Virus genome (UHGV): UHGV-0210252
Reading direction: 5' to 3' (one strand)
DNA length: 36,405 bases
From: a virus
Shown: piece by piece, positions 3,004-34,742 of the stretch
How the letters are laid out: the number at the start of each line of letters is the position of its first letter
How positions within the stretch are numbered: the stretch's first letter is position 1
Program-made: the position numbers and the translations under genes
Notes under the pieces: model-generated
What the model saw: only the letters and a program-made list of their open reading frames with translations
What the model was told of the DNA's origin: nothing
Database searches by the model: none

Positions 3004-3049
3004 TAACCATAAAGGCCACTACATATAGTAATGACCTTGAGTCTAACAC
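3004..3049 (-). promoter_or_regulatory. RNase III-type processing hairpin (R18.5-like)
   Basis: Conserved element ATAAAGGCCAC...ATGACCTTGAGTCTA, one of three copies (also 26980-27024, 34215-34260); minus-strand RNA folds AAGGUCAUUAC/GUAGUGGCCUU; sits between genes 18 and 18.5 where T7 has R18.5. Confidence 0.55.
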
Positions 3050-5999: not shown

Positions 6000-8900
6000 T
6001 CCTTGATGTGGATGCCTTGCTCCTCAAACGTTCCAAGCAACAGCTTCTGGGTAATGGGGTCGTTCGGAACCAGTTCACGGAACGTATTATACATCCCGGT
6101 CATGTAGTCACGCTCGTTGACACGAGTATCAGCCTTGAGGTAGCCAGCCAAGTTGTAAGCCGAAGCGCCAACGTTAGCAGCATATCCGAAAGCTGGAACC
6201 TGCTCCAAGAAGTTACCAACAACATTCATCACAGGGTCACTTGTAGCTGCACCATACGCGATGGCACGTTCAGGCTTCTCTGTAGGCGAACGAGGTAGGA
6301 TAGACGAACGGAGCATCTTAGTGTCCTCGTACCCAGCGATACCCCCAAGAATGTTAGCTACCCCAAGTGGTCCACCAAGATGTGAACTACGCGATAGAGC
6401 CGCATATCCAATCATCGTCGGGTCCAGAGCTTGCTTGAGGTAATCACGGTCTCGGCCATCCTGCATAGCGTAAGCCTTGACGTGCGCCTGAGCCATGTAG
6501 TAGATACCGGCAAGTCCCATAGACATCACAGTTGACAGAGCAGCGTCCATCGCTCGGTTGTTCTTCGTGGCATTATAGAAGGTTCGCATGGTTCGCCCAT
6601 TGATGGACTTGATGACGAAGTTCTTAAACTGAAGGACAGTCTTAGCGAGAGGGCCATAAGCCTTGGCGTCCATGTTTGATAGCTTATGAGGTCGGAGTAA
6701 CGTTTCGTCAGCGATGGTGTCACCCATACGCCACAGGTCCATAGCCCTTGGGTCCTGACTGAACGCCTTCTTGTCCTTGATGGTATACTTCCCGTCTGGA
6801 CCACGAGTCACTGACTCACGGATTAGGGACTTAATACCCTTCCACTGCTCGTCAGAGATACCAGCGGTCTTCAGCCAGCGGTCATCGAACTTACGCTTAC
6901 TACCAGTCAGGCTATGCTCCACGATGTCAGACAGGAAGCCTTGACGTCCAGCATCTAACAGGTAGTTGGTCGTACCGTTGAGGACTTTAGTGAACGGAGA
7001 GCGTACTGCAAGTTCACCAGTGTAATACTTTGCAGATCCTAAAGCAGTAGCCGTAGGTTTACTCAAGGCGCTGTAAGCTCGTAGGCGGTCTATGACATCC
7101 TGTTTAGACGGACGGATTGAGTCATCCAGTTCCTTACCGAAGATAACATTGTGCAGGTCCTTAATCTCTGAGGCCCCTACCTTCTTGTTACGGAAGGCTA
7201 GGTCACGGAACATCGGGACTCCATGCAGCAGCGCACGAACGTTGCCACGAGCAAGCATACCACCAATCTCCGTTAAGTTCTGAACACCCATGTAGGCATT
7301 CTTAGCGAAGAACGATAGGTCTGTCATTGTGCGCATCACGGTAGCGAAGGCCGCATCATCAGCACCATCACGTCTAGCACGACCAGTTAGAATCTTCAAA
7401 GTGTCACGTAAGGTCGAGACCTCACCTTTCAACTTGCCGTCATCGCCAGCCTTGTTCATCATGGTCTCAACCAAGTCCTTCATGTCCTTCGTGGTCTTTC
7501 CTGTACCAGCCATGATAGCAATGTCACCATTAACTCGACGGTTGTATGCCGGGACAATCTTATCCATATCCCACTCACGTAGACTATTTACGCTGAACGG
7601 CTTACCATTTGGCAAGGTTATTTCCATGTCGTTATCGAACAGGTTGCGAGCCTCAAGGAAGTTATTGTTCTCCAGACCAACCAGACCGTTGATGTTTTCT
7701 TCCATTACGGATGAACGCTCAAACTGCTCTGTATGGGAGATACCATAAGCCTTATCATTAGCATACTTCTCTACCATATCCATAGTCACCTCTGGTGCTG
7801 CTTGAGATGCGTTACCAGATGTAGGTTCACCAGCAGTAGTGGTCTGACCATCTACAGCAGTCTTCTGCCCTTTGGCAGCTGCCACAGCCGATTCAGCTTC
7901 AGTTGTTGCTTTGGTGATTCTGTCTCGGACCTTAGCAGCCTGTCCTTTCATGTAGTCAAGACGCTCAGTGTTAATACGGACGTGAGACTTCTGAGTCTCA
8001 ATCATCTGCTTCCGGCTCTCAATCTTAACAGGAATGGTCTTGCTCTTAGGTTTAGCGGCTAGCTTTTCTTCCAACTCCTTCAGCTTAGCTTCATGGGAAG
8101 CCAGTCGGTCCTTTGAGTTCTGGAGTCTCTTTTCACGGTCTGCAACTCGCTTCTCAGCGTTGGTAAGGACATCTTTGAGTTCCGCTACCTTATCAATTGC
8201 CTGTGTAGCCGCATCGTCCAGTTTCATCTGGTCACGGGCTGCTTCTACAGAAGAACGATGATTTGATGCAGTACCTACAGTCTTACCTGCTGCTGGTTGA
8301 GATGCCCGTAACTGCTCTGCTAACATCTCGTCCACTCGCGCCTTGACTTCAGGTCTTGACGCATAGCTTGTCAACCATGACTTCTTGATTGCCTCCTGTA
8401 ACGCCTCTGGGCTTCCAAGCTCATTGATATAAATCTGCTTCATCTGAGAACTATAGACCACAGGAACGTAGGTTCCCTTGAATCTACTACCCGGGAAGAT
8501 AGACTGAGCATCTGTACGACCAAACATCGCTGGGTTCTCCATCATCTCGCGCTTTGCATCAAACTGGTTCTTCAGCAGGTCATAGACTTTCAGTTCCCCC
8601 GGAGTAAGTTCAGCCTTCAGGTTCCCGCTACCATCCTCAATAGCCAAAGCCTCGCGCTTATAAACATCCTCACGCAGAGCTGAGTTATCTCGCCAGAATG
8701 CTGTCTGGAAGTACGGGTCCTTGAGCGCCTCAGTAACAGCATCGTCGATGTCGTTGTAGAACCGATGGTCCACAGCACGAAGTCTCTCGAATACGTCTGA
8801 CGCAGTGGTCCCGATTTTACCTGAAGCCCCTGACTGCATACCAGTTGGTGAACGCACTAAGTCAGCAGCGACTCCACGAATCTCAGGGTTCTCAGACCGA

Positions 8901-16984: not shown

Positions 16985-17028
16985 TAAGCAAAAAACCCCT
17001 CAAGCACCCGAAGGCACCCAAGGGGTTT
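16985..17028 (-). terminator. Tphi-like intrinsic terminator after gene 10
   Basis: Minus strand AACCCCUUGGGUGCC-UUCG-GGUGCUUGAGGGGUU followed by UUUUUUG; closely resembles T7 Tphi. Confidence 0.8.
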
Positions 17029-17031
17029 CAA

Positions 17032-18206
17032 TTAGTTGTTGGACTCAGCCAGTTTAGCGGCCCTGTTCGCAGCACGAGTACGCGCAGCTTTCTGTTGAGG
17101 AGTTAGAGTCTCCTCTTCAGGTGCAGCCGCTACTGTAGCGACGTTAGGTTGGCTAAAGGTGCTTACGCCGCTGGGCTGAAAACCAGTGCGCCAGCCGCTT
17201 CAGGGCGCAGACCGCCGTGACCCATAGCGTACTTACCAACAATCAGGTCGCCCTGAGCATCGACGTCACGGTCACGTTCCAACGCCAAGTCACGCAGCTT
17301 AACGGTACCCACAGCAGAACGGTGAGAGAACAGACCAACAACGTTATCCAGAGCAACTTTAACGTCACCAGCAGCAGTAGCTGGGAATGCGTGCTTCTGA
17401 CCAGTCGCAATAGTGATACCATCATCACCACGAGTTTCACCAGCACCACCCTGAGTCAAGTGTGGAACCTCAACAACCACGAAGCCCATTACGTTACGGA
17501 TGTTACCAGTCTCTGGGTCAATCAGCGCAGCATAGTTAGCAGCGTTCGGCATCAGAGCAGCGAGGATTGCAGAGTAGTTGTCCGGCGTCGTGTAGAAGTA
17601 ACGGTCGCCAGCAGGAACGTAGTTGGAGGTCAGCTTCGCACGAGCAATGGTCAGTTGACCAATGATTGCTTCACCCAGTTTAGCCGGGGTGTCGAGGTCA
17701 GCTTTCTTGCCTACTTCAAGTACGGACGCAGTGCCCAGGCCAGCAATATTCTCGTTGGATGCAGCCGGGAGGTTACACAGGATAGCCATTTCAGCCAGAA
17801 CCGCGCCATCAGCAGCGATAGCCAGAGCTTCACCCAACTGGTTGGAGTACTCGCCGGCAACGTCATAGTGGTTCATCGCGTCTTCAATGTCGAAAATCAT
17901 CACATCGGCAGTCAGCAGACCATCAATGGTAATCACTTTCTCGGTATGTTTGATACCTTTACGCTTATCGGACAGTCGCTCACCAGGAGCCAGATACACA
18001 CCAGATGTGCGACCCATGACCGGGAACTGAGCAGACTTACCATTCTGAATGGTACGTACAATATGCTTGTCAGCCGTTACGGAGCGGCGAGTGAATGCGG
18101 TCAGGACTTCACCAGCAAATACCTTCAGGAACAACGCCAGAGCGTCGGAACTTGATTTGCCTTTACCTTGGTCTGTACCAATTTTCTGACCCGGAACGTT
18201 TGCCAT
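17032..18206 (-). CDS. Minor capsid protein gp10B, predicted by -1 ribosomal frameshift near the end of gene 10A
   Basis: -1 frame after the shift site is open for 48 codons (QPSGVSTFSQPNVATVAAAPEEETLTPQQKAARTRAANRAAKLAESNN) to TAA at 17032-17034 and resembles the T7 gp10B tail. Confidence 0.65.
17163..18206 (-). CDS. Major capsid protein (T7 gp10A)
   Basis: 347 aa; strong similarity to T7 gp10A (LALFLKVF.GEVLTAF, KHTEKVITIDGLLTADV, AMGHGGLRPEAAGA). Confidence 0.95.
   Translation of the reverse strand: MANVPGQKIGTDQGKGKSSSDALALFLKVFAGEVLTAFTRRSVTADKHIVRTIQNGKSAQFPVMGRTSGVYLAPGERLSDKRKGIKHTEKVITIDGLLTADVMIFDIEDAMNHYDVAGEYSNQLGEALAIAADGAVLAEMAILCNLPAASNENIAGLGTASVLEVGKKADLDTPAKLGEAIIGQLTIARAKLTSNYVPAGDRYFYTTPDNYSAILAALMPNAANYAALIDPETGNIRNVMGFVVVEVPHLTQGGAGETRGDDGITIATGQKHAFPATAAGDVKVALDNVVGLFSHRSAVGTVKLRDLALERDRDVDAQGDLIVGKYAMGHGGLRPEAAGALVFSPAA
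17178..17184 (-). other. Candidate -1 frameshift site G GUU UUC
   Basis: Heptamer read from minus strand, in frame as CUG GUU UUC, 5 codons before the 10A stop; matches my recollection of the T7 gene 10 shift site. Confidence 0.6.
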
Positions 18207-29006: not shown

Positions 29007-29055
29007 AGGTCACTCCTTAATCACAAATGCGAACAAAGGGACAGGACTCACGGTC

Positions 29056-29078
29056 CCATCCCTAAGGTGATAGTTTAG
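29056..29078 (-). promoter_or_regulatory. Variant phage RNAP promoter (phi3.8 position), TSS about 29061
   Basis: cctaaggtgatagtt at 29061-29075: two changes in the -3/-2 region (CACCTTAGG versus CACTATAGG); may be weak or non-functional. Confidence 0.5.
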
Positions 29079-31465: not shown

Positions 31466-31623
31466 GTCTCAGGACGAATCCGTCCTACCACAAACCCAGC
31501 GTCCTCATACTCTTGGGACTTAAGGGTAGCCTCTTCAAGAGACTTTGCGTACACCGGAACCTCGAAGGACTGAACGCGACCCTCAAGCTCCACGATGTAC
31601 TTCTTCTTCTCAACCTCAGTCAT
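31462..31623 (-). CDS. Host RNA polymerase inhibitor (T7 gp2), 53 aa, hand-translated
   Basis: [53 protein letters not shown]; SFEVP.YA..L.EA and AGF.V.R.RP match T7 Gp2. Confidence 0.75.
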
Positions 31624-31739
31624 AAAATCTCCTTGTCGAGAATCTCTTCCAGCTTAACAAGTTCCTCTTCGGATAAATCAGTGAAGTCCACGAACTCCTT
31701 AATAAGCTGACACACAAAGTTAATCTGGTCTTGGTTCAT
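31620..31739 (-). CDS. gp1.8-position small acidic protein (39 aa), hand-translated
   Basis: [39 protein letters not shown]; stop overlaps gp2 ATG (ATGA). Confidence 0.4.
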
Positions 31740-31817
31740 AAACCGCGCTCCTTCCATTGGTTGTATAACGTAATGTAGTCCGGATTGAGAGTCTTCTCAT
31801 ACATCTCCCGGCACCAC

Positions 31818-32261
31818 TCACTCGGTAGCATAACACTTACCTTTATGCAGGTTGAACAGCTCCTGATAGAAGGCTGCTTTGTTCAGGTCCTTCTCCATAG
31901 TAGCCAGCTCTGACTTCTTACCAGCCCGGAGTCGATACTTCAGGACGTTACCCATGCAGAAACCACGGAACTCGCTGACAGTCATGGACCGAGCGATAAT
32001 CTCAATGGACTCCACACCGTCAAAGACCTGATAGTGGGACGGTTTACGGACGCTGTCTTCCTGACCTATTGTTGTCTGCTCGGTCTGCTCCTGATTGGTG
32101 ATTTCTAAGGCACTAGAGGAGTGAATGACTGGTTCAGATAAACAGGGCCACTTAACCACAACTATGTGCCCCATTCTAACCATAATCACCTTGCCACAGG
32201 AGAGTCCCATGTAGGCTGTAACTGGTCCAACATATTTAACTGTATCCCCAACCTTAACCAT
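31818..32261 (-). CDS. Nucleotide kinase (T7 gp1.7 family), shorter N-terminal region
   Basis: 147 aa; C-terminal half (KPSHYQVFDGVESIEIIARSMTVSEFRGFCMGNVLKYRLRAGKKSELA..DLNKAAFYQELF) matches T7 gp1.7; N-terminal half differs. Confidence 0.75.
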   Translation of the reverse strand: MVKVGDTVKYVGPVTAYMGLSCGKVIMVRMGHIVVVKWPCLSEPVIHSSSALEITNQEQTEQTTIGQEDSVRKPSHYQVFDGVESIEIIARSMTVSEFRGFCMGNVLKYRLRAGKKSELATMEKDLNKAAFYQELFNLHKGKCYATE

Positions 32262-32514
32262 TGACCACCTCCTTCACGTACTCAATGAATAGACGAACGC
32301 GAGGCCACTTAGTGTAGACCACAGGTACGTTGGTCTCACGCTTCTGGCGAGCCTCTTCAGCTTTGCCGGGAGTAATCAAGGCGAATACTGTAGGTGATAA
32401 CTTAACAGCCTTCCCGAAGTAGCCCAGCTTCTCGTTGCGCTTAATGCAAGCGAACGGGTTGTTGGACAGGTGGAAGGTATTTGTATAACGGTTGAACATT
32501 AAGTTCTTAGACAT
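32254..32514 (-). CDS. gp1.6-position protein (86 aa)
   Basis: Synteny and size only; AAGGAGA RBS after the promoter. Confidence 0.5.
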   Translation of the reverse strand: MSKNLMFNRYTNTFHLSNNPFACIKRNEKLGYFGKAVKLSPTVFALITPGKAEEARQKRETNVPVVYTKWPRVRLFIEYVKEVVNG

Positions 32515-32536
32515 AGAGTCTCCTTGGTTGTTTGTT

Positions 32537-32559
32537 GTAGTCCTATAGTGATAGCTTAG
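32537..32559 (-). promoter_or_regulatory. Phage RNAP promoter (phi1.5/1.6 position), TSS about 32542
   Basis: cctatagtgatagct at 32542-32556 (one change at about -13). Confidence 0.7.
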
Positions 32560-32595
32560 GGTCCAGCTGGTGTCCCAGACGATAGCTTGCTAGCA

Positions 32596-32632
32596 CAAAG
32601 CAAAGAAACCCAGCAGTCCGAAGACCACTGGG
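32596..32632 (-). terminator. TE-like intrinsic terminator after the DNA ligase gene
   Basis: Minus strand CCCAGUGGUC-UUCG-GACUGCUGGG (10-bp stem with two G.U, UUCG loop) followed by UUUCUUUGCUUUG; T7 has its early terminator after gene 1.3. Confidence 0.65.
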
Positions 32633-32643
32633 TTGACATTTAA

Positions 32644-33732
32644 TTAGCTCTTAATGGTCGGGTTATCTTCCGTCCCGCGCCAGCACTTGAAGCTAGGGTG
32701 ACGTAAGGAACCATCTGGTGTCATCTCCATGTAGGAGACCTCACACTGCCAGCCCTCGTATGGATTGACACCGCCAAGGATATATGTGTCGGTGTTACAT
32801 GCTTCCGTGAACTCATCCATCATAGCCTGAGAGATATTGTTAGCAGCAACTACCATACCGTTCTCAAGCAGTACGTCGAACCCAATCACCTTACCTTCGT
32901 TAGCGAGACCTTCAGTCCCCCAATTCAGTCCAACCACAGTACCATCAATGGTATCCTCAGGCTTCATTTTCCACATGCCTGACTTCTTACCACGCTTCCA
33001 CTTACCCAGCGGGTCCTTGACTACCAGACCCTCGTGTCCTTCCAGACGCTTCTCTTCGTACAGGGAGTTGAGCGACTCAAGGTCATAGACCGTGTGTGAC
33101 TCAGACAGAACCCAGTCAATTTCCGGGAAGTATTTCTTGAGGAGAGGGACGATAGCTTCGGCCTTCAGGCGGGTTACGCTATGGATAGGACCTTCGGCTT
33201 TCGGGTCGAGGATGACGTTAAGGTCGATGACCCCGTAGACGACTACCTGAATGTGTTCAGCAGCCAGCAGGAACGGTAGCTTTGACTTAGCGCCTGTTGA
33301 CTTGCGGGGCATCTCGTCAAACTTAACGTCATTGAACTTGAGGTTATCAGGCTTCAACCACTTCGTTCGTATGAGACCTGAAGACGTGTTGAAGTCTACA
33401 CCCTTGACCATGATCTCACCATCAATCATCAGGCCAGTGCCTTCGTAGCCAGCTTGCTTCAGGAACCAGAGCCAGTCAGACGCATTGGAGAGTCGAGGGT
33501 CTGCTACCTTATAGTCTCCTGCTGAGGTTGACAACCAGCTCAACGCTGGAAGCTCCTTGGACTCGCGGCTTAACCATTGAGTCTCACCAGTAGGAAAGAC
33601 CGGAAGATTCAACCGGACACCGTCATACTTCACCTCAGCTTCCAGTGACCCAGCAGCTTCCAGTGCTTTCTTAACGCCTGACTCAGAGTAATCTACAGCG
33701 CGATGCGGGTTAGTTTTGATAGTCGTAGTCAT
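32644..33732 (-). CDS. ATP-dependent DNA ligase (T7 gp1.3)
   Basis: Start set at MTTTIKTNPHRAV (T7 MMNIKTNPFKAV); EVKYDGVR adenylation motif, GHEGLVVKDP, WKMKPE, PDGSLRHPSF; track's upstream Met at 33810 rejected. Confidence 0.9.
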   Translation of the reverse strand: MTTTIKTNPHRAVDYSESGVKKALEAAGSLEAEVKYDGVRLNLPVFPTGETQWLSRESKELPALSWLSTSAGDYKVADPRLSNASDWLWFLKQAGYEGTGLMIDGEIMVKGVDFNTSSGLIRTKWLKPDNLKFNDVKFDEMPRKSTGAKSKLPFLLAAEHIQVVVYGVIDLNVILDPKAEGPIHSVTRLKAEAIVPLLKKYFPEIDWVLSESHTVYDLESLNSLYEEKRLEGHEGLVVKDPLGKWKRGKKSGMWKMKPEDTIDGTVVGLNWGTEGLANEGKVIGFDVLLENGMVVAANNISQAMMDEFTEACNTDTYILGGVNPYEGWQCEVSYMEMTPDGSLRHPSFKCWRGTEDNPTIKS

Positions 33733-33736
33733 TGTG

Positions 33737-33994
33737 TTATCTCCATGTGTCGAGTTGGTTAGCGAGACAGTTAAGGAAGCCTGTTGCAGTGTTGTACAGT
33801 ACGTCTTCATCGCGGTGTGCGAAGGTCTTAAGTGCGAAGATGTTACCTGCTAGGTCCTCGACTTGAAGTCTCATGCACTCTTTCTGAAGATGCGCCTCGT
33901 ACCAATGCTGCTGTATCACGCAGAAGTCTAACTGATAAAGCCTGTTACACGCTGCTTTGAAAGCGTTGAGGCTTCCACTATAAAGTCGGCCCAT
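33737..33994 (-). CDS. gp1.2 (host dGTPase inhibitor family)
   Basis: 85 aa; MGRLYSGSLNAFKAACNRLYQLD...HRDEDVLYN closely matches T7 gp1.2. Confidence 0.85.
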   Translation of the reverse strand: MGRLYSGSLNAFKAACNRLYQLDFCVIQQHWYEAHLQKECMRLQVEDLAGNIFALKTFAHRDEDVLYNTATGFLNCLANQLDTWR

Positions 33995-33998
33995 AGCG

Positions 33999-34178
33999 TT
34001 ATGCTCCTACGAAGTATTTCTCTTGGTTGACCATAGAGTCTTTACCTTCAGCATTACGGAAAGCGCCTTTGATGCCACCGCCACGTTTAGTCTTGTTCAG
34101 CTTGCGGCCCTTCGGAATGTAACCTTCAGTCTGCTGACGTTCACGGATGCGCTCGAAGTTGATAGTGTTCTGATACAT
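33999..34178 (-). CDS. gp1.1-like small basic protein (59 aa), hand-translated
   Basis: MYQNTINFERIRERQQTEGYIPKGRKLNKTKRGGGIKGAFRNAEGKDSMVNQEKYFVGA; KGRKLNKTKR matches T7 gp1.1; GGAGA RBS. Confidence 0.6.
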   Translation of the reverse strand: MYQNTINFERIRERQQTEGYIPKGRKLNKTKRGGGIKGAFRNAEGKDSMVNQEKYFVGA

Positions 34179-34214: not shown

Positions 34215-34260
34215 GGTTAATCATGAAGGCCACGACTTTGAGTCATGACCTTGAGTCTAA
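34215..34260 (-). promoter_or_regulatory. RNase III-type processing hairpin (R1.1-like)
   Basis: Third copy of ATGAAGGCCAC...ATGACCTTGAGTCTA, immediately downstream of the phi1.1-like TSS. Confidence 0.55.
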
Positions 34261-34279
34261 TCCTATAGTGATAGTTTAG
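34257..34279 (-). promoter_or_regulatory. Phage RNAP promoter (phi1.1-like), TSS about 34262
   Basis: cctatagtgatagtt at 34262-34276. Confidence 0.8.
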
Positions 34280-34742
34280 GGTATAATCGTTGGCTGTTGC
34301 GTAAGGCTTGTACTATACGTTCCTGCTCTGCCTCCTCGCCGTAGACCTTAACCCGCTCGTAGTCGTACTGGATGCGACCGTCGATGTCGCTCAGTCGGTA
34401 CTCAAAGTCTTTCTGAGACCCGTCTACGTGGTGCTGGTGGATGGTAAGGGTGCGTTCAGTCTTCGATGTGGTGAAATGCTTAACGTTCTTCCCACAGCTA
34501 CCCGGCCCGGTCTTGAACTCAGTCGGTTGGTACAGACCGTTGAACAGTGCCTTGAACTTGATGCCTACCATACGCTTGACATGTACAGCCAGTGGTGGCG
34601 TTAGGCGCTTACGCTCTGATTCAGCAAGTTTAACCTTCAGTCTCTCGTTGTCTTTATCCAGGACCATTACTACTCGCTCAAAGTATGCCACCTTCATGTT
34701 CAACTCTTTGATTTGTGCTTTAAGTTTTGACTTACCAAACAT
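34263..34742 (-). CDS. Hypothetical protein (159 aa) between gene 1 and gene 1.1
   Basis: ATG with GAGG RBS; N-terminal coiled-coil-like region; no motif recognised. Confidence 0.55.
   Translation of the reverse strand: MFGKSKLKAQIKELNMKVAYFERVVMVLDKDNERLKVKLAESERKRLTPPLAVHVKRMVGIKFKALFNGLYQPTEFKTGPGSCGKNVKHFTTSKTERTLTIHQHHVDGSQKDFEYRLSDIDGRIQYDYERVKVYGEEAEQERIVQALRNSQRLYPKLSL

What the first reader, a model, noticed from the sequence alone, without database searches (positions are those of the whole stretch)
32596..32632. Early terminator with UUCG tetraloop after the ligase gene
A 10-bp stem (two G.U pairs) capped by UUCG and followed by a U-rich tract lies directly after the ligase stop and before the next phage promoter, matching the position of the T7 early terminator TE for host RNAP.
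Basis: partly seen in the sequence, partly recalled or inferred. Interest (0 to 1): 0.2.

Follow-up and report, generated by a model that had tools for sequence, protein, structure and literature searches.

The report
Early transcription terminator of a K1F-like phage
This is the ordinary, already-annotated "early terminator" (TE) hairpin that T7-family phages place after their DNA ligase gene, most likely to stop the host's RNA polymerase; it is real and well conserved but not new.

Summary
On the minus (coding) strand, 11 nt after the ligase stop codon, a 10-bp stem with two adjacent G.U pairs (12 bp counting two A-U pairs) is capped by C(UUCG)G and followed by UUUCUUUGCUUUG. A consensus phage promoter and gene 1.6 follow. 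The window is a reverse-oriented Kayfunavirus (K1F-like) genome.

The hairpin is the second most stable perfect hairpin in the window, after the Tphi-like one, and the only strong one with a U-rich tail. An equally good hairpin plus tail turned up in 1 of 100 shuffles of the window.

Its arms are 98-99.7% conserved in 27 relatives, against 73% for the adjacent ligase coding sequence. Six loop variants occur, so UUCG itself is not required. Other T7-family genera carry different stem sequences with the same architecture at the same position, including T7's own TE (also UUCG).

The EcoDS1 GenBank record already labels the orthologue "terminator TE", followed by "phi1.6". Termination by host RNA polymerase is inferred by orthology with T7, where it is experimentally and genetically established. 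It was not measured here.

The parts
32644..33732 (-). DNA ligase gene (gp1.3), the last gene of the early unit. The mechanical ORF runs up to 33810, but relatives align from residues 27-29, so the likely start is the ATG at 33732.
   Evidence: ORF list; Pfam DNA_ligase_A_M 2e-20 and DNA_ligase_C 1.3e-32; relatives annotate DNA ligase / gp1.3; residues matched in related loci.
32623..32634 (-). 5' arm of the terminator hairpin: AA + CCCAGUGGUC.
   Evidence: Sequence; folds; 99.7% column conservation in 27 Kayfunavirus sequences.
32619..32622 (-). UUCG tetraloop closed by C32623-G32618.
   Evidence: Sequence. Loop variants in relatives: UUCG 13, UUAG 5, UUCGCG 5, UUAGCG 1, UUCACG 1, UUAU 1.
32607..32618 (-). 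3' arm of the hairpin: GACUGCUGGG + UU.
   Evidence: Sequence; folds; 98.1% column conservation.
32596..32608 (-). U-rich tail UUUCUUUGCUUUG. By analogy with the T7 site, which lies 7 nt after the stem, RNA 3' ends are expected near 32602-32599 (inference).
   Evidence: Sequence. UUUCUUUGC is present in 22 of 26 relatives. T7 TE tail is UUUCUGCGUUU, with the site annotated at 7588.
32581..32599 (-). 19-nt segment (CUUUGUGCUAGCAAGCUAUC-like) between terminator and promoter. It is present in about a third of relatives and absent in K1F and EcoDS1. It can form a weak second hairpin and repeats 8 nt (AAGCTATC) of the promoter. No function is assigned.
   Evidence: Alignments; fold.
32538..32560 (-). 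Phage RNA polymerase promoter (phi1.6 equivalent), -17 to +6, with +1 at 32543.
   Evidence: Exact match to the K1F-type consensus, one of 11 matches in the window, all on the minus strand, against 0.04 expected. The orthologue is annotated 'promoter phi1.6' in EcoDS1 and 'promoter' in ASO2B.
32254..32514 (-). Gene 1.6 homologue (86 aa), the first gene after the terminator and promoter.
   Evidence: ORF list; orthologues annotated gp1.6 in EcoDS1 and K1F.
34261..34279 (-). Nearest upstream phage promoter. Its transcripts must cross genes 1.15, 1.2 and 1.3 and then meet the hairpin.
   Evidence: Consensus match; orthologous promoter annotated in ASO2B and EcoDS1.

Best explanation
The element is the Kayfunavirus orthologue of the T7 early terminator TE. 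[quoted passage not shown]

The proposed mechanism is as follows. Host sigma-70 RNA polymerase starts at the left-end promoters, which lie beyond the end of this window. It transcribes the early genes through gene 1 (phage RNA polymerase) and gene 1.3 (ligase). When it transcribes 32634..32596, it pauses on the weak U-rich hybrid. The GC-rich 10-12 bp hairpin forms in the RNA exit channel and the transcript is released, probably around 32602-32599.

The genes beyond are then expressed by the phage polymerase from the promoter 35 nt further on (+1 at 32543). Phage polymerase arriving from upstream promoters such as 34279..34261 probably reads through for the most part, because the U run is interrupted.

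Shown here: the structure, its statistical distinctness, its position, its strong conservation, and the same architecture in other genera. Inferred from T7: actual termination, its specificity for host polymerase, and the role in dividing early from middle transcription and in transcription-driven genome entry.
For: - Structure and stability: (-18.6 to -20.2 kcal/mol, z = -4.8).
- Rarity: 1 of 100 whole-window shuffles reach the same energy with a T-rich tail.
- Orientation: it lies on the coding strand. The reverse strand has no U-rich tail (ACAUUUAAUU).
- Position: 11 nt after the ligase stop, 35 nt before a consensus phage promoter. This matches T7, where TE at 7588 follows gene 1.3 and has the same UUCG-capped hairpin and a similar tail.
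- First in line: no other convincing hairpin with a U-tract lies upstream on this strand between 32647 and 36405.
- Conservation: the 61-nt element occurs in 221 phage records, 202 of them at 90% identity or more. The surrounding 2.1 kb is mostly 80-90% identical.
- Selection on the arms: in 27 aligned relatives the arms are 98-99.7% conserved, against 73% for the ligase 3' coding sequence and 91% for the promoter. The loop is free to vary.
- Other genera: other Studiervirinae have different stem sequences with canonical pairing kept, and a similar tail UUU(U)C..GCGUUU.
- Boundary marker: where relatives have an HNH endonuclease ORF or a 59-aa ORF inserted after the ligase, the hairpin stays just upstream of phi1.6. 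It therefore marks the unit boundary, not the ligase.
- Independent annotation: EcoDS1 labels it 'terminator TE', the first terminator after three annotated host promoters. ASO2B's was found by TransTermHP and WebGeSTer (PMC10612097).
- T7 function: host transcription proceeds to TE and termination there is substantial. A stem mutation, 7576 T>C, which by my mapping turns an A-U pair into A.C, was present in every isolate sequenced of a T7 whose gene 1 lies downstream of TE, where the authors say the change has an obvious benefit; single-base TE changes gave large fitness gains in related rearranged genomes (PMC3737178).
Against: - No transcript 3' ends or termination assays exist for this phage or, as far as I found, for any Kayfunavirus.
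- The host promoters are outside the window, which ends inside gene 1. Host transcription up to this point is therefore inferred from relatives.
- The U-tract is interrupted (UUUCUUUG), so efficiency may be well below 100%.
- Within the genus the stem is nearly invariant, so there is no within-genus covariation. The few stem changes seen are uncompensated mismatches (L026 U.U, L029 G.A, L037 C.U).
- Between genera the stems are too different to prove common descent rather than independent origin.
- A large group of relatives, Przondovirus-like with the promoter TAATTAGG..CACTATAGGAGA, have no hairpin after the ligase at all. A terminator at this exact spot is therefore not obligatory in the subfamily.
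Confidence: 0.85

Rival explanations
1. The hairpin mainly attenuates or terminates the phage's own RNA polymerase, as a class I, Tphi-like signal. It would trim transcripts that start at the upstream phage promoters (for example 34279..34261) and set the ratio of ligase-region to downstream middle-gene RNA.
For: Phage single-subunit polymerases also terminate at stable hairpins followed by U runs (PMC11347151 abstract). The window's Tphi-like terminator shares the C(UUCG)G loop. A promoter 35 nt downstream would restore transcription, so termination here would be tolerated.
Against: The tail is UUUCUUUG, whereas the Tphi-like element has an uninterrupted U6 and a 17-bp stem. In T7, accounts of phage-polymerase transcription recognise only Tphi as its terminator, and TE is assigned to the host enzyme. 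This reading is also compatible with the main explanation rather than opposed to it.
Confidence: 0.07
2. The hairpin does not terminate transcription. It acts only as an RNA element: a 3' stabiliser that blocks exonucleases after processing, or an RNase III processing site.
For: T7-family early and middle RNAs are heavily processed. Other stable hairpins without U-tracts lie just after promoters in this window (34252..34226, 3038..3012, 29063..29037).
Against: A 10-12 bp perfect stem is well short of the roughly two helical turns typical of RNase III substrates (established knowledge). The conserved U-rich tail (22 of 26 relatives) has no role in that model. The T7 counterpart is a proven terminator whose stem mutations relieve termination (PMC3737178). 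A terminated RNA would in any case end in this protective hairpin.
Confidence: 0.04
3. It is a chance hairpin with no function.
For: A loose pattern (stem of at least 10 pairs with G.U allowed, T-rich tail) occurs 0.28 times per shuffled window.
Against: At its actual stability it occurs in 1 of 100 shuffles anywhere in 72.8 kb of both strands, yet it sits in one specific 85-nt intergenic gap. Its arms are more conserved than the flanking coding sequence and the promoter. It is present in 221 phage records.
Confidence: 0.01

Closest known systems
Terminator TE of Kayfunavirus EcoDS1 (GenBank EU734172, feature 7668..7697), and the rho-independent terminator annotated at 7855..7894 in phage ASO2B (MZ726794)
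   Same: They are orthologous. Both stem arms and the tail UUUCUUUGC are identical. Both lie between gene 1.3 and the phi1.6 promoter and gene 1.6.
   Different: Only the loop differs: UUCG here, UUCACG in EcoDS1, UUAGCG in ASO2B. The 19-nt segment after the tail is present here and in ASO2B but absent in EcoDS1 and K1F.
Bacteriophage T7 early terminator TE (NC_001604 position 7588; to my knowledge also the BioBrick part B0012, which I did not check)
   Same: It occupies the same position, after the gene 1.3 ligase at the end of the host-transcribed early region. It has the same build: a GC-rich stem, a C(UUCG)G tetraloop and an interrupted U tail, UUUCUGCGUUU against UUUCUUUGCUUU here. Its function as a host-polymerase terminator is established (PMC3737178).
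   Different: The stem sequence is unrelated and shorter: 8 bp, GGCUCACC/GGUGGGCC, -15.4 kcal/mol, against 10-12 bp and about -19 to -20 kcal/mol here. In T7 the terminator is followed by gene 1.4 and by promoters phi1.5 and phi1.6. Here the phi1.6-type promoter follows directly.
Tphi-type late terminator of T7-family phages (here 17029..16992, after the capsid gene)
   Same: It is a hairpin plus U-run element on the same strand, also capped by C(UUCG)G in this genome.
   Different: It is longer (17 bp, -24.7 kcal/mol), has an uninterrupted U6 run, lies after gene 10, and acts on the phage polymerase.
Canonical bacterial intrinsic terminators
   Same: A GC-rich hairpin followed at once by a 7-9 nt U-rich tract (PMC3993855 abstract), at the 3' end of a transcription unit.
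   Different: Nothing essential differs. The U-tract is imperfect, with 6 U in 8.

Membership tests
Intrinsic (Rho-independent) terminator | Stable GC-rich RNA hairpin | tested here: met
   10-12 bp stem, 6 G-C pairs, -18.6 kcal/mol alone; z = -4.8 against shuffles.
Intrinsic (Rho-independent) terminator | U-rich tract of 7-9 nt directly after the stem | tested here: met
   UUUCUUUG, 6 U of 8, directly after the last G-C pair. It is interrupted by C and G, as in T7 TE.
Intrinsic (Rho-independent) terminator | Lies on the transcribed strand at the end of a transcription unit, in an intergenic gap | tested here: met
   Minus strand, like all the genes. It is 11 nt after the ligase stop and 35 nt before the next promoter.
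Intrinsic (Rho-independent) terminator | Transcripts actually end there, without Rho | not testable with these tools
   No RNA data. Needs in vitro transcription or Term-seq.
T7-group early terminator TE | Located after gene 1.3 (ligase), at the early/middle boundary, before phage-promoter-driven middle genes | tested here: met
   The element stays at the boundary when extra ORFs follow the ligase in relatives.
T7-group early terminator TE | First terminator downstream of the left-end host (sigma-70) promoters | tested here: inconclusive
   The window ends inside gene 1, so the host promoters cannot be seen. In EcoDS1, three host promoters are annotated at 469-800 and TE is the first annotated terminator. 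No other hairpin with a U-tract lies upstream on this strand within the window.
T7-group early terminator TE | Sequence homology to T7 TE itself | tested here: not met
   The stems share no alignable sequence, and MAFFT does not place them in register. Only the loop and the tail pattern resemble each other. Orthology to the TE annotated within Kayfunavirus is clear at 94% identity. Descent in common with T7 TE is undecided.
T7-group early terminator TE | Stops host polymerase but lets phage polymerase through | not testable with these tools
   Inferred from T7 only.
RNase III processing site of T7-family phages | Long (about 20 bp or more) interrupted duplex, usually just after a promoter or between genes, with no U-tract needed | tested here: not met
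   The stem is only 10-12 bp and perfect, with a conserved U-rich tail. No Rfam family matched.

The most novel reading that the evidence does not exclude
The hairpin could be a dual-polymerase element. Besides stopping host polymerase, it would partially attenuate the phage's own polymerase coming from the upstream phage promoter. That would tune ligase-region against middle-gene RNA levels, and the variable 19-nt segment and variable loop would modulate its efficiency between strains. Nothing here excludes this, but nothing specifically supports it either.
Probability: 0.12. Interest if true: 0.25.

Novelty: already known. Interest (0 to 1): 0.07.

Why it matters
It matters little beyond correct annotation. 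It marks the boundary between the early, host-transcribed genes and the middle, phage-transcribed genes of this K1F-like phage. It confirms that the genome follows the textbook T7 plan.

It could serve as one more natural terminator part for E. coli, somewhat more stable than the widely used T7 TE. The comparative data give a small general point. Across T7-family genera, the position and architecture of TE are kept while the stem sequence is replaced. Within one genus the arms are almost frozen while the loop drifts.

Tried and rejected
- Rfam at E up to 10 over 31500..34000 found nothing. No curated family covers T7-type terminators.
- A MAFFT alignment of terminators from different genera did not come out in structural register. 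I did not run the tool-based pair counter on it. I counted pairs anchored at the stem base in a script instead. That is descriptive, not a statistical covariation test.
- The K1F genome paper (Scholl and Merril 2005) is not held in the library under its DOI or PMC id. Neither K1F GenBank record annotates the terminator.
- Several literature searches for T7 TE efficiency figures returned nothing usable or failed on short search terms. I therefore quote no efficiency numbers.
- RNase III site: rejected on stem length and the conserved U tail.
- Bidirectional terminator: rejected. The plus-strand reading has the tail ACAUUUAAUU and there are no plus-strand genes.
- Chance: rejected.
- I did not use the large protein-database, structure-prediction or metagenome tools, because the question did not need them.

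Full report
**What the window is**

All long ORFs and all 11 matches to the K1F-type phage promoter consensus lie on the minus strand. The window is 92-95% identical over most of its length to Kayfunavirus genomes: ST31, K1F, Baskent_phicoli_1 and others. It is therefore a K1F-like member of the T7 subfamily (Studiervirinae), presented in reverse orientation and cut inside gene 1. An ORF running off towards 36389 is the C-terminal part of the RNA polymerase region.

**The observation**

On the minus strand the sequence after the ligase stop codon (32646..32644) reads UUAAAUGUCAA-CCCAGUGGUC-UUCG-GACUGCUGGG-UUUCUUUGCUUUG.

- The ten stem pairs include two adjacent wobble pairs, U32627.G32614 and G32626.U32615.
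- The loop is UUCG closed by C-G.
- Two flanking A-U pairs can lengthen the stem to 12 bp.
- The next phage promoter is an exact consensus match at 32559..32541 with +1 at 32543. Gene 1.6 follows at 32514..32254.

Every element of the description is therefore present.

**Is it more than chance?**

- The 51-nt region folds at -20.2 kcal/mol (z = -4.8; 0 of 200 shuffles as good).
- In a scan of both strands of the whole window it is the second most stable perfect hairpin. The first is the Tphi-like element at 17029..16992.
- It is the only hairpin below -10 kcal/mol with at least 6 T in the following 10 nt.
- In 100 dinucleotide-preserving shuffles of the whole window, an equally stable hairpin with such a tail appeared anywhere on either strand once.
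- A looser criterion without an energy cut-off is met 0.28 times per shuffle. The bare pattern is not extraordinary. The stability and the exact location are.

**Context and comparison**

The upstream gene is an ATP-dependent DNA ligase by Pfam and by the annotation of relatives.

In T7 the feature 'E. coli transcription terminator TE' is annotated at 7588, 34 nt after the gene 1.3 stop. Its sequence is GGCUCACC-UUCG-GGUGGGCC-UUUCUGCGUUU. That is the same architecture, the same tetraloop and a similar interrupted U tail, but an unrelated stem.

Within Kayfunavirus, the EcoDS1 record labels the orthologous hairpin 'terminator TE' and the next promoter 'phi1.6'. That record also shows three host promoters at the left end, with TE as the first annotated terminator. 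The ASO2B record calls the orthologue a rho-independent terminator found with TransTermHP and WebGeSTer (methods in PMC10612097). The two K1F records leave it unannotated. [quoted passage not shown]

**Conservation**

- The 61-nt element is found in 221 phage records, 202 of them at 90% identity or more. The surrounding 2.1 kb is 80-90% identical in most records.
- In an alignment of 27 Kayfunavirus sequences, column conservation was as follows:

| Segment | Column conservation |
|---|---|
| 5' arm | 99.7% |
| 3' arm | 98.1% |
| Last 100 nt of the ligase gene | 73% |
| Flanking spacers | 79-84% |
| Promoter | 91% |

- The loop varies freely: UUCG 13, UUAG 5, UUCGCG 5, and UUAGCG, UUCACG and UUAU once each.
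- The few stem changes within the genus are uncompensated single mismatches, and one variant shifts register. The genus gives no covariation evidence.
- Across genera the post-ligase hairpins have quite different stems: CCCAGUGGUC, GGCUCACC, GGUCAGAC, GGUCAGUCC, GGUCUCC, GGUCUACC. All keep canonical pairing, a small loop and a tail of the form UUU(U)C..GCGUUU. I could not put these into a tool-verified structural alignment. This is descriptive support for 'structure, not sequence', not a formal test.
- Where relatives carry an HNH endonuclease ORF (L005 2492..2953) or a 59-aa ORF (L003 2574..2753) after the ligase, the hairpin follows that extra ORF and stays just upstream of phi1.6. It marks the end of the transcription unit, not the ligase gene as such.
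- A large Przondovirus-like group has the phage promoter directly abutting the ligase stop, with no hairpin there. The position is therefore not universal in the subfamily.

**Mechanism**

The best reading is a standard intrinsic terminator for the host polymerase:

1. The polymerase pauses on the U-rich hybrid.
2. The hairpin forms.
3. The transcript is released a few nucleotides into the tail. By analogy with the T7 site, 7 nt after the stem, this is about 32602-32599.

For T7, the literature held here states three things (PMC3737178). Host transcription from A1-A3 proceeds to TE just beyond 7.5 kb. Termination there is substantial. The rest of the genome is then transcribed, and pulled in, by the phage polymerase.

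When gene 1 was moved downstream of TE, single-base changes in TE gave large fitness gains. One of them, 7576 T>C, maps by my indexing to the A-U pair of the stem. That is in vivo evidence that the T7 hairpin is what stops the host enzyme.

Accounts of T7 transcription recognise only Tphi as a terminator for the phage polymerase. This fits read-through of TE by that enzyme. The interrupted U run here, against the U6 of the window's own Tphi-like element, fits the same expectation. None of this was measured for this phage.

**Rivals**

- A phage-polymerase attenuator is possible but secondary.
- An RNase III site is unlikely on stem length and on the conserved U tail.
- Chance is excluded by conservation.
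- A purely stabilising hairpin is not really a rival, because a terminated RNA would end in it anyway.

**Verdict**

The element is an already annotated, textbook feature of this phage genus. Its interest is low, and its value is annotation-grade.

Noticed in passing
window 17029..16992 (-): A Tphi-like late terminator lies after the major capsid gene (17163..18206, plus a downstream extension). Its sequence is GAAACCCCUUGGGUGCC-UUCG-GGUGCUUGAGGGGUUUU + UUGCU. It has a 17-bp stem at -24.7 kcal/mol and is the most stable hairpin in the window. It also carries a C(UUCG)G loop.
   Followed up: partly
window 34252..34226 (-), 3038..3012 (-), 29063..29037 (-): Three stable hairpins (-13.8 to -17 kcal/mol) without U-rich tails. 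Two lie beside phage promoters: 34252 just after the one at 34279..34261, and 29063 overlapping the end of the one at 29078..29060. No promoter match was found near 3038. Two share the frame AAGGUCAU...GUGGCCUU. They look like T7-type RNase III processing sites rather than terminators. The ASO2B record annotates the orthologue of the first as a 'rho-independent terminator', which seems doubtful.
   Followed up: no
window 32599..32581 (-): A 19-nt presence/absence polymorphism lies between the terminator tail and the promoter. It is present here, in ASO2B and in about 8 of 27 relatives, and absent in K1F and EcoDS1. It contains the palindrome UGCUAGCA. It also repeats 8 nt of the promoter (AAGCTATC, at 32588..32581 and 32556..32549). 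It may be the remnant of a second, phi1.5-like promoter.
   Followed up: partly
L005 2492..2953; L003 2574..2753; L010 and L020 just after the ligase stop: The gap between ligase and terminator is an insertion hot-spot in relatives. L005, and by sequence similarity after the ligase stop L016 and L021, carry an HNH-type homing endonuclease ORF of 153 aa. L003 and L015 carry a 59-aa ORF. L010 and L020 carry about 30 nt that look like the two ends of the HNH gene, left after an internal deletion.
   Followed up: partly
L051-L099, most of these loci (contigs with the promoter TAATTAGG..CACTATAGGAGA): In this large, Przondovirus-like group the phage promoter directly abuts the ligase stop codon, or follows one further short stretch in some loci. 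No hairpin follows the ligase. The only candidate is a weak one (UGGCUCAGACUAAGAGCCG + UCCUUUCG, -8.2 kcal/mol) about 280 nt further on. The early/middle boundary is organised differently there.
   Followed up: no
L014 / L037 and L038, after the terminator: In these Kayfunavirus-like contigs the terminator (tail UCUUUUCG) is followed not by the phi1.6 promoter but by a ribosome-binding site and a small hydrophobic ORF. This resembles the T7 arrangement of TE followed by gene 1.4.
   Followed up: no
window 34263..34742 (-): A 159-aa ORF between gene 1.1 and the promoter at 34279..34261 belongs to the T3 gene 1.05 family (Pfam PF25755, 4e-25). It is present in EcoDS1 as gp1.05 and apparently absent in ASO2B.
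   Followed up: partly
window 33733..33810 (-): The mechanical ligase ORF has 26 extra N-terminal codons that overlap gene 1.2 (33737..33994). Relatives align from residues 27-29, so the real start is probably the ATG at 33732.
   Followed up: partly
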